Below are positions 1-4,617 of a stretch of 4,617 nucleotides of DNA, piece by piece (positions within the stretch are counted from its first letter, which is position 1; each line of letters starts with the position of its first letter). The notes beneath the pieces are model-generated. The model saw only the letters and a list, made by a program, of their open reading frames with translations, ran no database searches and was not told where the DNA came from. The position numbers and the translations under genes were made by a program. This DNA comes from a virus. Lineage: Duplodnaviria; Heunggongvirae; Uroviricota; Caudoviricetes. The DNA lies in the IMG/VR virus record IMGVR_UViG_2690316066_000015. The stretch is one strand, 5' to 3'.

Positions 1-119
1 ACGGCGAGCATTCGGTGGAGCTGACCCAACGTTTTGCCCGCGCCAGCGCCTTTACTCATGTGCTGCTGCTGAAAAGCCCACAGGAGATCCGCCCAACCAT
101 CGACACACAAAAGGCGTTA

Positions 120-302
120 CTACTGGTGCGTTTCCCGGCTGACTTCTCGCGCAAACAGGAGCTGTGTGGCCAGTGCCCGGATGGCTTCAGCCCCCGTTTT
201 CACACGAAGGTCGATGCGGCGGCCAAATCGTTGCAAATCCCCGTAAAGGCAGATGCGTGCCATTCCCGGTGACGCCAGAGGGAGTGTGTGCGTCGCTGCC
301 AT
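120..302 (-). CDS. I: Tail tip assembly protein I, truncated (N-terminal ~48 aa lambda gpI-like, then divergent with stop at codon 61; probable pseudogene or remnant)
   Basis: ATG at 302-300 lies 103 nt inside the 3' end of K in another frame, as in lambda. [48 protein letters not shown] matches the start of lambda gpI as recalled. After residue 48 (about position 159) the sequence diverges ([12 protein letters not shown]) and ends at tandem stops TAG (120-122) and TAA (117-119). Lambda gpI is 223 aa; no continuation of I-like sequence is visible in any minus-strand frame down to position 1. Confidence 0.55.
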
Positions 303-943
303 TTGTCGGTATACCTCTCTCGTTTACTCAGTTGTTCAGGAATATGGTGCAGCAGCTCACCGTCGCCGCAGTAAATGGCGGCGTGATTCGGCACCGATGA
401 ACCAAAACAGCACAGCAGCACATCGCCCGGCTGCGCCTCTGTCAGTGCGACACGGTAAAAACCAGTAGCCTCCATATTGTCAAGATAGAGATTCTGACCG
501 TGACGCCACCAGTCATCCCCGCGATGAAAATCCGGCATCTCAATCCCCGCCAGATGGTAAGCATCCCGGAACAGTGTGTAACAGTCCGTCACCCCGTACT
601 CAAAGCGCCGCCCGGTGAGATGCGGCACACAGCGGAACTTGTGAATCGCCCCCCGGCAGACCAGCCACCACGGCAAATCGCTCTGCACCTGCAGCCGCCG
701 GTCAGCCTCACTCAGCCAGGGCAGACCACCGGGGTGGCTGTGGACCAGCGCCACAATCTCACCCTGCATCTCTGCCTGCAGCCAGTCCTCCGGAGCCATC
801 CGGAAATACGCCTCCCGCTCACCGGAGATATTCACGCAGGGGAAATATCTTTCCCCCTCCGGCGTGCTTACCACGAAGCCGCACGACTCCGCTGGCGCAC
901 ATCGCCGGGCGTGCGCCAGAATCGCTGATTCTGTCTCTGTCAT
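200..943 (-). CDS. K: Tail tip assembly protein K (phage lambda gpK family; MPN/JAMM-like plus NlpC/P60-like domains)
   Basis: Open frame 985..200 on the minus strand. The first ATG is at 943-941 ([15 protein letters not shown]...), 4 nt after the L stop, giving 247 aa. The track's longer 261-aa ORF starts at a TTG (985). The classical 199-aa lambda K corresponds to an internal ATG at 799-797 ([16 protein letters not shown]...), which has a GGGAGG Shine-Dalgarno-like sequence about 11 nt upstream. The sequence contains an HSHPGG(x7)SxxD JAMM-like motif and a Cys/His pair (DCYTLF, NHAAIY) consistent with an NlpC/P60 fold. TGA at 200-202. Start codon choice is uncertain; the 3' end is firm. Confidence 0.85.
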
Positions 944-947
944 GGGA

Positions 948-1646
948 TTACTGCGAAAGTTTGTTAATGGAAAGGAAGCCGCCAAAGTTGCCGACGTTAT
1001 TGCGAAACTTACAGCCGCTCAGGCATTTGCTGCATTTATCCTTCGTGATATCGGACGTCGGCTGGTCATATTCATCCGCGACTGCCGGACCGTGATAACC
1101 GCACTCATCACCGCGATAGGTCCAGGTGCAGGTGTTGGCCAGCATGATACGCCCCGGAAAAACAGCGCCATCCGTTTCCGTCGGCGTGGACAGTACAAAG
1201 GAGGCACTCACCGCGCTCAGTTCGCTGCACTGCTCGATGCGCCAGCGGCTGATCACCTCCTGCTCCGGATCGGCGTCTCTGTTTCCGTTGACGAAGTTCA
1301 CCGCATCCAGAAAACGGGCGTAAACCTTACGCCGGACCACCGTTCCGCCGACCAGACTCTGCATATCTTCCACCATACCGGTGACCATGCCGTACAGGTT
1401 AGAGACTGCCAGCGTGGGCCGCGTACTGGTGCCTTTGCCATTCAGTTCAAAACCGCTCCCCTGAATGGGATACGCCTGATACTGCCTCCCCTGCCAGGTG
1501 ACCGGCTCACCTTTTTCGTTCTGCTCATTACAGAAAAAATAACGTTCTCCACCGACCTCTGTCAGATCGATTTCCCAGAGCACCACGCTGGCCGACTGCT
1601 CCGCACGGGTGCATTCATTCAGTGTTTCCTGCCGGATATCCTGCAT
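948..1646 (-). CDS. L: Tail tip protein L (phage lambda gpL family; iron-sulfur cluster-binding)
   Basis: 232-aa ORF (MQDIRQETLNECTRAEQSASVVLWEIDL...), same length as lambda gpL and highly similar as recalled. The C-terminal cysteine cluster is present (C173, C182, C205, C208, C212: ...NTCTWTYRGDECGYHG...DKCSKCLSGC...). ATG at 1646-1644, TAA at 948-950. Confidence 0.95.
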   Translation of the reverse strand: MQDIRQETLNECTRAEQSASVVLWEIDLTEVGGERYFFCNEQNEKGEPVTWQGRQYQAYPIQGSGFELNGKGTSTRPTLAVSNLYGMVTGMVEDMQSLVGGTVVRRKVYARFLDAVNFVNGNRDADPEQEVISRWRIEQCSELSAVSASFVLSTPTETDGAVFPGRIMLANTCTWTYRGDECGYHGPAVADEYDQPTSDITKDKCSKCLSGCKFRNNVGNFGGFLSINKLSQ

Positions 1647-1975
1647 CAGTTCACCACCTGTTTAAACTCTGCGCTGAACCCAACACGCAACATACTGACC
1701 TGCGACGACCATTTTGCGCAGGTCACCTTTATCTGCCTGTAACCATAAGGCGGCGTCCACAGAAAGGCCTTCCAGCCCCCGTGCTCAGCCAGAAACGACT
1801 CCAGCGCCGTGGCCTCCTCACGGGAGACAGACAGCGTCACGCTGTACGTTTTCAGGTCAGCGTTCAGCCCGGCAGGCGCACGCTGGGAATAGCCATCACC
1901 AAAGCGCACCTCCCTGACGGAAGGAGCCGATGTCACATCCATCCCGGGTTTCACTTTCCAGCGGAAGGTTTTCAT
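1646..1975 (-). CDS. M: Minor tail protein M (phage lambda gpM family)
   Basis: 109-aa ORF (MKTFRWKVKPGMDV...KVTCAKWSSQVSMLRVGFSAEFKQVVN), same length and near-identical to lambda gpM as recalled. Its ATG at 1975-1973 overlaps the H stop (ATGA) and its TGA at 1646-1648 overlaps the L ATG by 1 nt, matching lambda H-M-L synteny. Confidence 0.95.
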   Translation of the reverse strand: MKTFRWKVKPGMDVTSAPSVREVRFGDGYSQRAPAGLNADLKTYSVTLSVSREEATALESFLAEHGGWKAFLWTPPYGYRQIKVTCAKWSSQVSMLRVGFSAEFKQVVN

Positions 1976-4479
1976 CGTCCACCTCCGGAGAACAGTCCAC
2001 CATCACGCATCTGTGTCTGAATTTCATCACGGGCACCCTTGCGGGCCATGTCATACACCGCCTTCAGAGCAGCCGGACCTATCTGCCCGTTCGTGCCGTC
2101 GTTGTTAATCACCACATGGTTATTCTGCTCAAACGTCCCGGACGCCTGCGACCGGCTGTCAGCCAGACTGCCCGGTGTACCGACATAACCACCGGTGGCA
2201 TAGCCGCGCATCAGCCGGTAGAGATTCCCCACGCCAATCCGGCTGGTTGCCTCCTTTGTGAAGACAAATTCACCACGGTGAACAATCCCCGCTGGCTCAT
2301 ATTTGCCGCCGGTTCCCGTAAATCCTCCGGTTGCAAAATGGAATTTCGCCGCAGCGGCCTGAATGGCTGTACCGCCTGACGCGGATGCGCCGCCACCAAC
2401 AGCCCCGCCAATGGCGCTGCCGATACTCCCGACAATCCCCACCATTGCCTGCTTAAGCAGAATTTCTGTCATCATGGACAGCACGGAACGGGTGAAGCTG
2501 CGCCAGTTCTGCTCACTGCCGGTCAGCATCGCCGCCATATTCTGTGCAATACCGTCAAAGGTCTGCGTGGCCACACTTTTAACCTGCGAAAAACTGTCCG
2601 TCGCACTTTCCGCCCACACTCCCCAGCCGGACTTCATCCCGGCCATCCAGCTTCCACGAAGCTGCTCCTCCGCAGACCAGGTGTTCTTCAGTGCCGATGT
2701 GGCCTTCGCCAGCGCAGCCGGATTATCACCGTACACCTCACGAAGGCGCTGCTCTTCCGACTCCCGCTGCGCCTGACGGTCGGTGAGGCCGCGGGCTTTT
2801 GCGCTGATTGCCGCCTGCTTCGCGCTTTGCTGCTGTTCAAACCGCGCCGCCTGCTGTGCCAGCTCATTCAGCCGCTTCTGGTGTTCAATCTTGTCTCCCA
2901 GCTCAGCCAGCTGGCGTTTGTACTCCAGCGTCTCTTTCTCATGAGCCAGCAGGGATTTTTCCTGCTCAGATAACTGCCGTTTCGTGGCGGCCTCTTTCAG
3001 GACCACATACTGATTTTCCGCTTTCCATAAATCACGGCGCTGCTGGCTGATTTTTTCATTCGCACCGCTGTGCTTCTCCAGCGTCCTGAGCTCAGTTTCA
3101 AGCGCCAGCAGGGCTGCATGCGCCTGGTCTTCCTGGCGCTCACCGGCAGACACCTTCACACCGGACGGCTTTTTCTGCGTCGACTCATAATCCTTTTTTG
3201 CCGACGCCATCAGCGTGTTGTAATCCGCCTGCAGGATTTTCCCGTCTTTCAGGGCCTTATTCAGCTCTTCCTGCCGGGCGGTATATTTCTCCAGTGGCGT
3301 CAGCAGGCGCTCATACGCCTTCTGCGCCTCTCCGGTATACTTCAGCTGTGACGCCTCACGCTCAGCCCGGTCCCTTGCCGCCAGTTCACCGGCTTTTTCC
3401 ATATCCGACTGCAGCGTGGCCGCTGCCAGACCCAGACGGGCATTTTCCCGGTCATCCCATGCGCCCTGAAGGTTGGCACGAAAAGAGGAGGTCTTTCCCC
3501 GGCGCTGGCTCCGGCTCTGGTACCACTGCCATTTTTTATCCGCCTCATCAAATGCCTTCTGCGCACTGACGAGCATATCCGCTGAGGATTCAGGACGACC
3601 GATATCCAGAATGGCATCCCACATCGATTTGAATGCCTTCCCTGTTTTATCCGCCCAGGTCTCCAGTGTTCCCATGTTTTCTTTCAGGCGACGGGTCTGC
3701 TCATCAAAGCCTTTCGTGGCGATATCGTTCGCCGCCTGCAATGCCCCGGCCTCGTCTCCGGAACGCTGCAGCTGTGCAACATACGCAATCTGCTCTGCCG
3801 TCACGTTACGGAACTGGCGCGCCATCGCCATCAGTCCCGACGTCGGGTCAGTGGTCAGCTTCCCGAAGGCTTCAGCGACTTTATCCACCTCCACACCGGA
3901 TGCAGACGCAAAACGCGCGACACTCTGGTTGATGGCATCAAACTGTTCACCACCACGCACACCGGCATTCACCAGGGCTGCCAGTGACTCTCTCGCCTGG
4001 TTAAACGTCAGCCCTGCTGCCTGCCCGGCTCTTGAGAGCGTCAGCATACGATCGGCAGTCAGTCCGGCCTGATTGCCGGAAAGGACCAGGGTTTGATTAA
4101 ATTCTGAAAGCGTGGCGTCGCCCTGGTACCAGGCGTACGCCAGCGCACCTGTCGCCACCGCCAGCGAGGTGACCCCGACCATCGGCAGGGTGATCGCACC
4201 GGCAAGCCCCCTGAACATGGGGATCATCCCGCCGAAGGAGTCCTTCACCTGACCGCCCTGTTGCAGCAGGATCAACCAGGGATTCTGACCACCGGCAAGC
4301 TGCGTGGCGATATCCGTAAACTGTGCGGGCAGGGTTCGCATGGCCGCTTTATACTGCCCGACGGAAATCCCGGCTTTTTGTGCAGCCAGCGCCTGGCGGC
4401 TCAGGCCCTGTTCAACAGCACTGGCGGTTTTTCTGGCGTCGGTATCCAGACCTGAAAAATGACGCCTTACCCGGCTCAT
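1972..4479 (-). CDS. H: Tail length tape measure protein (phage lambda gpH family)
   Basis: 835-aa ORF with ATG at 4479-4477 and TGA at 1972-1974. The translation (MSRVRRHFSG...QYKAAMRTLPAQFTD...GGLFSGGGR) is near-identical over long stretches to lambda gpH as I recall it, especially the N-terminal ~290 aa and C-terminal ~250 aa. It has a hydrophobic segment near the N-terminus (AITLPMVGVTSLAVATGALAYAW), a long charged, coiled-coil-like central region and a Gly/Ala-rich segment (GSIGSAIGGAVGGGASASGG), typical of tape measure proteins. Stop overlaps the M start (ATGA). Similarity not computed. Confidence 0.95.
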   Translation of the reverse strand: MSRVRRHFSGLDTDARKTASAVEQGLSRQALAAQKAGISVGQYKAAMRTLPAQFTDIATQLAGGQNPWLILLQQGGQVKDSFGGMIPMFRGLAGAITLPMVGVTSLAVATGALAYAWYQGDATLSEFNQTLVLSGNQAGLTADRMLTLSRAGQAAGLTFNQARESLAALVNAGVRGGEQFDAINQSVARFASASGVEVDKVAEAFGKLTTDPTSGLMAMARQFRNVTAEQIAYVAQLQRSGDEAGALQAANDIATKGFDEQTRRLKENMGTLETWADKTGKAFKSMWDAILDIGRPESSADMLVSAQKAFDEADKKWQWYQSRSQRRGKTSSFRANLQGAWDDRENARLGLAAATLQSDMEKAGELAARDRAEREASQLKYTGEAQKAYERLLTPLEKYTARQEELNKALKDGKILQADYNTLMASAKKDYESTQKKPSGVKVSAGERQEDQAHAALLALETELRTLEKHSGANEKISQQRRDLWKAENQYVVLKEAATKRQLSEQEKSLLAHEKETLEYKRQLAELGDKIEHQKRLNELAQQAARFEQQQSAKQAAISAKARGLTDRQAQRESEEQRLREVYGDNPAALAKATSALKNTWSAEEQLRGSWMAGMKSGWGVWAESATDSFSQVKSVATQTFDGIAQNMAAMLTGSEQNWRSFTRSVLSMMTEILLKQAMVGIVGSIGSAIGGAVGGGASASGGTAIQAAAAKFHFATGGFTGTGGKYEPAGIVHRGEFVFTKEATSRIGVGNLYRLMRGYATGGYVGTPGSLADSRSQASGTFEQNNHVVINNDGTNGQIGPAALKAVYDMARKGARDEIQTQMRDGGLFSGGGR

Positions 4480-4617
4480 CTGCTCATCGAAACGGACAGC
4501 ATCCAGGGTAACACACTCACCCTTGAGCAGCTGAAAGCAGAAAACCGCGCGGTACTGGTCACCGTGGGGTTATCGAGCGGTTCCGGGTTATCGCTGTTTG
4601 AGCATAGCGACGTTGAG
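4476..4617 (-). CDS. Possible 3' end of the upstream tail assembly gene (lambda G-T / gpT position), 5'-truncated by the window edge; frame and exact stop unresolved
   Basis: Synteny: in lambda, T ends overlapping the start of H. One minus-strand frame is open across all 47 codons from the window edge and ends in TGA at 4476-4478, overlapping the H ATG (ATGA arrangement). However its translation is Ser-rich and uses rare codons (CTA, AGG, AGA, TTA). The other two frames stop at 4588-4590 (TAA; H frame) and 4559-4561 (TGA). I cannot match any frame to gpT from memory, so coordinates are provisional. Confidence 0.3.
   Translation of the reverse strand, partial: STSLCSNSDNPEPLDNPTVTSTARFSAFSCSRVSVLPWMLSVSMSR

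What the first reader, a model, noticed from the sequence alone, without database searches (positions are those of the whole stretch)
4476..4617. Remodelled T-H junction: H starts at the equivalent of lambda Met23 and the upstream H frame is closed by two TAA codons
The H ATG at 4479 aligns with Met23 of lambda gpH (lambda begins MAEPVGDLVVDLSLDAARFDEQM-ARVRRHF as recalled). Here the ~10 codons upstream in the same frame still encode lambda-like residues (VTLDAVRFDEQ) with good codon usage, but further upstream the translation is unrelated (PHGDQYRAVFCFQLLKGEC) and the frame is closed by TAA at 4570-4572 and 4588-4590, with no ATG, GTG or TTG in between. So H is either N-terminally shorter than lambda H, or the junction is a recombinational mosaic. 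The upstream gene's stop could be TGA 4476-4478 (ATGA overlap, but a rare-codon, Ser-rich frame), TGA 4559-4561 or TAA 4588-4590; I cannot decide from sequence alone.
Basis: partly seen in the sequence, partly recalled or inferred. Interest (0 to 1): 0.4.

Follow-up and report, generated by a model that had tools for sequence, protein, structure and literature searches.

The report
Truncated tail gene at chimeric contig end
The odd "start" of the phage tape-measure gene H is a breakpoint where the gene, missing its first 13 codons, abuts a backwards 111-base piece of the bacterial gene preT at the tip of a short draft contig; this is most likely an assembly artefact, not a remodelled phage gene junction.

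Summary
ATG 4479 corresponds to lambda gpH Met23, nine H-like codons lie upstream, and beyond them is unrelated sequence closed by two TAA codons. The interpretation does not hold.

Window 4507-4617 is not phage DNA. It is 100% identical to an internal piece (codons 198-234) of the single-copy chromosomal gene preT, lying antisense to H. Prophage identity starts at 4506, which is codon 14 of an otherwise ordinary 857-aa lambda-type H. The joint is blunt, and the window contains no T gene, no G-T slippery site and no native H start.

The window is the whole of a 4,617-nt draft contig (CDRY01000495.1). Its other tip (1-156) is an internal piece of another core gene, ybhR, joined to tail gene I after codon 48. 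Neither junction occurs in 5,426 complete E. coli genomes, the phage records, the GTDB species representatives or the JGI metagenomes. No fusion ORF across junction 2 exists among 5.8 billion proteins.

A repeat-derived contig with two foreign tips 111 and 156 nt long is best read as an assembly or library chimera (about 0.8). A real private rearrangement remains possible (about 0.15). In either case the 835-aa "H" is only the first in-frame ATG of a truncated gene. Interest is low.

The parts
4507..4617 (+). Internal fragment of the chromosomal gene preT (yeiT): gene nt 592-702, codons 198-234 (GNTLTLEQLKAENRAVLVTVGLSSGSGLSLFEHSDVE). It is sense on the + strand, so antisense to H, and forms the terminal 111 nt of the contig.
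   Evidence: It is 100% identical to preT in many complete E. coli genomes, and the fragment occurs exactly once per genome in 5313 of 5426 genomes.
4506..4507 (.). Breakpoint 1: a blunt joint between preT nt 592 and H nt 40 (first base of codon 14). No shared bases, no inserted bases, no IS end or att site.
   Evidence: A three-way alignment of the window, preT and an intact prophage shows preT identity ending at 4507 and phage identity beginning at 4506. The junction is absent from E. coli complete genomes, phages, GTDB representatives and JGI metagenomes.
4480..4506 (-). Nine H codons (L14-Q22: LDAVRFDEQ) left upstream of the annotated ATG.
   Evidence: They are 100% identical at the nucleotide level to intact H genes and align with lambda gpH residues 14-22.
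1972..4479 (-). The 835-aa ORF annotated in RefSeq as a tape measure protein (WP_055324166.1). It is H from its first in-frame ATG (Met23) to the stop, i.e. a 5'-truncated lambda-type gpH.
   Evidence: ORF listing. Precomputed Pfam hits TMP_2 and Tape_meas_lam_C. 82% identity to lambda gpH residues 14-853, colinear. 832 of 845 positions of the ungapped translation comparison, stop included, are identical to the 857-aa H of NZ_CP077477.1. This exact protein is seen on only one contig.
1646..1975 (-). Gene M (109 aa), intact.
   Evidence: ORF, Pfam Phage_min_tail, and annotation of the syntenic relative.
948..1646 (-). Gene L (232 aa), intact.
   Evidence: ORF, Pfam Phage_tail_L, and annotation of the relative.
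200..943 (-). Gene K (247 aa as called; C40/NlpC-P60 peptidase), intact.
   Evidence: Called gene with Pfam Prok-JAB and NLPC_P60, and annotation of the relative.
158..302 (-). Gene I remnant: the first 48 codons ([48 protein letters not shown]), after which the frame runs into antisense ybhR.
   Evidence: Translation compared with the relative. Phage identity starts at 158 in all top hits.
157..157 (.). Breakpoint 2: a single base A that matches neither parent (ybhR has T, the prophage has G). The following GGA (158-160) is shared by both parents.
   Evidence: Three-way alignment, phage hits starting at 158, and both the K-12 and E2865 ybhR alleles having T here.
1..156 (+). Internal fragment of the chromosomal gene ybhR: gene nt 170-325, YbhR residues 58-108, sense on the + strand. 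It forms the other tip of the contig.
   Evidence: 99.4% identity over 1-160 to ybhR in complete genomes, annotation, and alignment and frame.

Best explanation
The region is not a T-H gene junction. It is a breakpoint at the tip of a short draft-assembly contig. A lambda-type tape measure gene H, missing its first 13 codons, its ribosome-binding site and everything upstream (T, G, V...), is joined bluntly to a backwards 111-nt internal piece of the host gene preT. The 835-aa 'H' starting at ATG 4479 is simply the first in-frame ATG (Met23) that a gene caller can use after the break. The two TAA codons and the 'unrelated' translation upstream are antisense preT read in the H frame. All of this is shown directly. 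The inferred step is that the joint is an assembly or library chimera and not the isolate's real chromosome. The contig consists of a 4.35-kb segment of a multi-copy lambdoid tail module with an unrelated single-copy core-gene fragment stuck on each end (preT 111 nt, ybhR 156 nt). Both fragments are shorter than one or two sequencing reads, and the contig stops immediately after each.
For: Shown:
- 4507-4617 is 100% identical to preT nt 592-702, and the fragment is single-copy in 5313 of 5426 genomes.
- Phage identity begins at 4506, which is H codon 14.
- The same H allele in a complete genome starts 22 codons upstream of the Met23-equivalent ATG, behind GGAGGTG, overlapped by the T stop, with GGGAAAG in G.
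- ATG 4479 is preceded by CGATGAGCAG, with no proper SD, and no promoter-like site lies in 4300-4617.

For the artefact reading:
- The window is the entire 4,617-nt contig CDRY01000495.1.
- Its other tip is an internal ybhR fragment joined to gene I, with one orphan base at the joint.
- On K-12 the two host loci are 1.41 Mb apart.
- Both joints lack homology, IS ends and att sites.
- The contig ends 111 and 156 nt beyond the joints, although both flanks are unique sequence that an assembler should extend.
- The tail module is repeated, with a median of 4 places per genome.
- Neither joint is found in 5,426 complete E. coli genomes, 50,697 phage records, GTDB representatives or JGI metagenomes.
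- The truncated protein occurs on one contig only, and no YbhR fusion ORF exists in the 5.8-billion-protein set.
Against: - No reads were available, so the chimera is inferred, not shown.
- I could not pin down the artefact mechanism. The phage segment's ends do not coincide with a common mosaic boundary between prophage copies. The tips are not bounded by SNPs between two reference alleles, and the contig ends do not overlap. A classical de Bruijn mis-join would need a shared k-mer, and none exists.
- The orientation of the two host fragments is what one junction of an inversion across the terminus would give, only 121 kb off-centre from dif. I estimate a 2-3% chance of that coincidence.
- The lookup reported 'samples_with_this_contig: 2'. 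I take this to be the GenBank and RefSeq copies but could not verify it.
Confidence: 0.8

Rival explanations
1. The joints are real. In this one isolate a 4.35-kb remnant of a lambdoid prophage (I'-K-L-M-H') sits between truncated ybhR and truncated preT, formed by illegitimate (non-homologous) joining. The topology equals one junction of a roughly 1.41-Mb inversion across the replication terminus, with a phage fragment captured at the joint. H' would then be a dead 5'-truncated pseudogene remnant.
For: The ybhR flank is read in descending K-12 coordinates (ending at 825,784) and the preT flank in ascending coordinates (from 2,234,624). That is the configuration of an inversion junction. The two breakpoints lie 765 kb and 644 kb either side of dif at 1,590,750, and near-symmetric inversions about the terminus are the kind E. 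coli tolerates (established knowledge). Both host fragments match alleles that occur together in the same complete genomes, for example E2865. Sequence on each side of the joints is clean.
Against: - It requires two homology-free joints within 4.35 kb, and each also lies within 160 nt of a contig end although the flanks are unique DNA.
- It is not seen in any other genome or assembly searched.
- The remnant's H', M, L and K ORFs are all intact and 99.3% identical to a live-looking prophage, so the event would have to be very recent.
- The symmetry argument is post hoc.
Confidence: 0.16
2. One reading: H in this phage is natively about 22 residues shorter at its N-terminus than lambda gpH and is translated from ATG 4479.
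For: An 835-aa ORF from ATG 4479 exists and RefSeq annotates it.
Against: The nine codons upstream are still perfect H sequence. Identical H alleles in complete genomes start at MSQPVGDL... behind a strong SD. ATG 4479 has no SD at a workable spacing and no promoter-like site. No T/G chaperone genes or late operon lie upstream, only antisense preT.
Confidence: 0.02
3. One reading: a phage-phage recombinational mosaic in which a different T-like gene has been spliced onto H.
For: Lambdoid tail regions are mosaic in general; homology boundaries within gene I are seen in other genomes.
Against: The upstream DNA is 100% preT, a host core gene in the opposite orientation, and not any phage gene. 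No phage record matches it.
Confidence: 0.01

Closest known systems
Bacteriophage lambda tape measure protein gpH (NP_040595.1) and its lambdoid prophage orthologues (e.g. WP_032283727.1, 857 aa)
   Same: H' is colinear with lambda gpH residues 14-853 at 82% identity, and its C-terminal ~190 residues differ from lambda at only one position. It carries the Pfam TMP_2 and Tape_meas_lam_C domains and is followed by M, L, K and I in lambda order.
   Different: It lacks codons 1-13, the SD and the overlapping T stop, and the G/T chaperone genes are absent upstream.
Chimeric contig ends in short-read draft assemblies (chimeric reads or mis-scaffolded short nodes attached to a collapsed repeat)
   Same: The contig is short and derived from a multi-copy prophage module. 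It has foreign single-copy fragments of sub-read to about read length at both tips, homology-free joints, one orphan base, and no corroboration elsewhere.
   Different: Read-level evidence is unavailable. There is no shared k-mer at the joints and no adaptor or linker sequence, so the exact artefact mechanism is not identified.
Terminus-symmetric chromosomal inversions in E. coli, classically arising by recombination between prophages or IS copies on opposite replichores (from general knowledge, not tested here)
   Same: The orientation of the two host flanks and their near-symmetry about dif fit one junction of such an inversion, and prophage DNA lies at the joint.
   Different: Known cases arise by homologous recombination between repeated elements. 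Here the breakpoints lie inside unique genes with 0-3 nt of shared sequence, and only one junction is seen, in one fragmentary assembly.

Membership tests
Lambda-type tail tape measure protein (gpH) | TMP_2 (PF06791) and lambda-type C-terminal (PF09718) domains | tested here: met
   Precomputed Pfam hits on the 835-aa product.
Lambda-type tail tape measure protein (gpH) | Full-length colinear similarity to lambda gpH | tested here: met
   BLASTP gives 82% identity, with query 1-844 aligned to lambda 14-853.
Lambda-type tail tape measure protein (gpH) | Native N-terminus and start site (M-x-x-PVGDLV..., SD upstream) | tested here: not met
   Codons 1-13 and the GGAGGTG SD are replaced by antisense preT.
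Lambda-type tail tape measure protein (gpH) | Synteny H-M-L-K-I | tested here: met
   Gene I is cut after codon 48.
Lambda G/GT-H junction (what the finding claims) | A T reading frame upstream of H whose stop overlaps the H start | tested here: not met
   No phage DNA lies upstream of 4506. The three candidate stops lie in antisense preT or out-of-frame H. The intact relative has the T stop 20 nt inside H.
Lambda G/GT-H junction (what the finding claims) | G-T slippery heptamer GGGAAAG upstream | tested here: not met
   It is present in the relative at L002 2017. The only window occurrence is inside H at about 3499 on the minus strand, which is irrelevant.
Assembly or library chimera at a contig tip | The foreign segment lies at the extreme contig end and is about one read long or less | tested here: met
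   The window equals the whole contig. The tips are 111 nt and 156 nt.
Assembly or library chimera at a contig tip | The joint is absent from all independent assemblies of related genomes | tested here: met
Assembly or library chimera at a contig tip | The joint is supported by few or no properly paired reads, while the intact parental loci are present in the same read set | not testable with these tools
Genuine prophage-remnant/host rearrangement junction | A mechanistic signature at the joint (att core, IS end, target duplication or microhomology) | tested here: not met
   Junction 1 has 0 nt shared. Junction 2 has an orphan A plus a shared GGA. No IS or att sequence is present.
Genuine prophage-remnant/host rearrangement junction | Unique flanking DNA continues beyond the joint | tested here: inconclusive
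   The contig stops 111 and 156 nt past the joints. Whether that reflects graph forks or low coverage cannot be told.

The most novel reading that the evidence does not exclude
The contig is a faithful picture of the isolate's chromosome. On this reading, a recent private inversion of about 1.41 Mb across the replication terminus has breakpoints inside ybhR and preT. It was sealed by homology-independent end joining that captured a 4.35-kb fragment of a resident lambdoid prophage (I'-K-L-M-H') as filler DNA.
Probability: 0.13. Interest if true: 0.3.

Novelty: not a real feature. Interest (0 to 1): 0.06.

Why it matters
It matters mainly as a caution. A RefSeq protein (WP_055324166.1, 'phage tail tape measure protein', 835 aa) and an apparently shortened tape measure start are by-products of a truncated gene at a chimeric contig end. 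They should not be used as evidence for N-terminal variation of tape measure proteins, or for tail-length variation. If the joints turned out to be real, they would document homology-independent joining with capture of prophage DNA at a terminus-symmetric inversion in E. coli. That would be uncommon but not conceptually new.

Tried and rejected
1. I searched for the whole 238-nt junction region in complete E. coli genomes and in phages. Only the two halves matched, and separately.
2. I ran exact-pattern scans for junction 1 (GTDB representatives and JGI metagenomes) and junction 2 (GTDB representatives). All returned zero.
3. I looked for independent assemblies carrying the truncated H. It occurs on one contig only, and its cluster partner P0002 is an unrelated 53-aa peptide.
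4. I searched 5.8 billion proteins for the YbhR-junk fusion ORF across junction 2. All hits continue as normal YbhR. This negative is not conclusive, because partial or fusion ORFs may be hidden inside clusters.
5. A literature search for the assembly accessions gave only a spurious substring hit, a JACDRY... accession in a Pectobacterium paper.
6. I tested whether the phage segment's ends coincide with common identity boundaries between prophage copies, which would explain a collapsed-repeat contig. No boundary lies near H codon 14, and only loose ones (about +/-50 nt) lie in gene I, so the test was inconclusive.
7. I tested whether the tips are SNP-bounded graph nodes, as in a mixed-strain assembly. 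There are no SNPs at preT nt 591/703 or ybhR nt 169/326 between K-12 and E2865. There is also no terminal overlap or palindrome, so nothing points to a circular molecule or a hairpin artefact.
8. A promoter and terminator scan of 4300-4617 found nothing.
9. I rejected a functional Met23 start and a phage-phage T/H mosaic, for the reasons given under the rival explanations.
Full report
**1. Checking the observation**

The feature lies on the minus strand.
- ATG lies at 4479-4477 and opens an 835-aa ORF that ends at 1972.
- In the same frame upstream the translation is ...LNVAMLKQR*PGTAR*PHGDQYRAVFCFQLLKGECVTLDAVRFDEQ-M.
- TAA codons lie at 4590-4588 and 4572-4570. There is no ATG, GTG or TTG between the second TAA and the ATG.
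- The alternative stops at 4478-4476 and 4561-4559 are both TGA.

The lambda record gives the gpH N-terminus as MAEPVGDLVVDLSLDAARFDEQMARVRRHF. The recollection was correct, and ATG 4479 corresponds to lambda Met23.

**2. What is upstream of the ATG**

A megablast of 4617-4380 against 5,426 complete E. coli genomes found no record covering the whole query. The tape measure match always began at query position 112, which is window 4506. The phage collection gave the same result.

The distal part, searched alone, is 100% identical to an internal segment of preT. This gene encodes the NAD-dependent dihydropyrimidine dehydrogenase subunit (yeiT). The fragment is present exactly once in 5,313 of 5,426 genomes.

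A three-way alignment of the window, preT and an intact prophage shows the following.
- preT identity runs from 4617 down to 4507.
- Prophage identity starts at 4506.
- There are no shared bases and no inserted bases at the joint.

The preT fragment covers gene nt 592-702 (codons 198-234). It is sense on the + strand and so antisense to H. The 'unrelated translation', the two TAA codons and the three candidate 'T stops' are therefore antisense preT or out-of-frame H. The window contains no T gene, no G gene and no GGGAAAG slippery site upstream of H.

**3. What H looks like when intact**

The best complete-genome relative is NZ_CP077477.1, at 99.3% identity over window 158-4506. It carries the usual lambda order ...V-G-T-H-M-L-K-I-J.

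Its H is 857 aa and begins MSQPVGDLVIDLS|LDAVRFDEQMSRV... The start sits behind GGAGGTG, the T stop falls 20 nt inside H, and GGGAAAG is present in G. The window retains H only from codon 14. The nine codons LDAVRFDEQ upstream of the ATG are residual H. The preceding 'V T' is preT sequence.

H' aligns colinearly with lambda gpH residues 14-853 at 82% identity and carries the TMP_2 and Tape_meas_lam_C domains. ATG 4479 is preceded by CGATGAGCAG, which offers no SD at a usable spacing. No sigma-70-like site is found in 4300-4617. The 835-aa ORF (RefSeq WP_055324166.1) is simply the first in-frame ATG of a 5'-truncated gene.

**4. Context: the window is a whole contig, and the other end is chimeric too**

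An exact look-up of the 835-aa product found one contig: CDRY01000495.1 of assembly GCA_001373235.1. It is 4,617 nt long, identical in extent to the window.

The far end of the window also failed to match the prophage. Window 1-160 is 99.4% identical to an internal part of ybhR, an ABC exporter permease and another core gene.
- Base-level alignment shows ybhR nt 170-325 at window 1-156.
- Base 157 is an A that matches neither parent.
- Prophage identity starts at 158. This cuts tail gene I after codon 48.

The contig is therefore [ybhR 156 nt]-A-[I'-K-L-M-H', 4,349 nt]-[preT 111 nt]. The tail module is a repeat in E. coli genomes, with a median of 4 places per genome.

**5. Real or artefact?**

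Neither joint exists in the complete E. coli genomes, the phages, the GTDB species representatives or the JGI metagenomes (junction 1 only). The truncated H is unique to this contig. A search of 5.8 billion proteins for the fusion ORF that junction 2 would create found only normal YbhR sequences.

Both joints lack homology, IS ends, att cores and adaptors. Both lie within 111-156 nt of a contig end, although the flanks are unique DNA that an assembler would normally extend for kilobases. Two such joints on one 4.6-kb repeat-derived contig are what chimeric tips look like. They would be a remarkable coincidence for a true structure. I therefore favour an assembly or library chimera, at about 0.8.

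I could not identify the artefact mechanism.
- The ends of the phage segment do not sit on an obvious shared mosaic boundary.
- The tips are not bounded by SNPs between two reference alleles, and there is no terminal overlap or palindrome.

One point favours the real-rearrangement rival. On K-12 coordinates the ybhR flank is read descending to 825,784 and the preT flank ascending from 2,234,624. That is the topology of one junction of a 1.41-Mb inversion spanning dif (1,590,750), only 121 kb off-centre. By my estimate such orientation plus symmetry has a 2-3% chance of arising at random. The comparison is post hoc, however, and does not outweigh the contig-tip argument. I give this rival about 0.15. 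Even then, H' would be a dead remnant.

**6. Comparison with what is known, and verdict**

The gene is an ordinary lambda-type tape measure gene. It passes the domain, colinearity and synteny tests and fails only the native-start test, because the start has been cut off.

The claimed 'remodelled T-H junction' fails both defining features of a lambda T-H junction that I tested: there is no T frame and no slippery site.

The finding is best classed as not a real biological feature, namely a truncated gene at a probably chimeric contig end. Its practical lesson is that WP_055324166.1 is an annotation by-product.

Reads from the isolate would settle the residual uncertainty within minutes.

Noticed in passing
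window 1-160: The other end of the contig carries an internal fragment of the core gene ybhR (nt 170-325, sense on the + strand) joined to tail gene I after codon 48. This creates a spurious chimeric ORF (window 3/15..272 +) that the gene caller also called.
   Followed up: yes
window 157: A single base A at junction 2 matches neither ybhR (T in both K-12 and E2865) nor any prophage copy (G). It is an untemplated or erroneous base at the joint, followed by GGA, which both parents share.
   Followed up: yes
window 1-156 and 4507-4617, mapped to K-12 825,784 and 2,234,624: The orientation of the two host fragments equals one junction of a 1.41-Mb inversion across dif (1,590,750), 121 kb off-centre. 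This may be coincidence or a hint that the structure is real.
   Followed up: partly
window 2497-4095, mainly 3014-3592: All 32 nucleotide differences from the best complete-genome relative fall inside H, and 25 of them lie in 3014-3592. The same central region (about H' residues 305-385) is where H diverges most from lambda gpH, with small indels. This looks like an ordinary mosaic patch in the tape measure coiled-coil region.
   Followed up: partly
window 4506/4507: Breakpoint 1 falls exactly on a codon boundary in both genes (H codon 14 position 1, preT codon 198 position 1), although the genes are on opposite strands. This is probably coincidence (about 1 in 9).
   Followed up: no
window 1972-4479 (protein WP_055324166.1): RefSeq holds this truncated ORF as a distinct 835-aa 'phage tail tape measure protein'. 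In the 90% clustering its cluster representative is an unrelated 53-aa Logan peptide (P0002, MKHFWKKTLWAALL...), which is a clustering oddity.
   Followed up: partly
window 200-985: The mechanical ORF for gene K starts at TTG 985 (261 aa) and overlaps L. The gene caller and RefSeq relatives use ATG 943 (247 aa). Gene I (ATG 302) overlaps the end of K, as in lambda.
   Followed up: no
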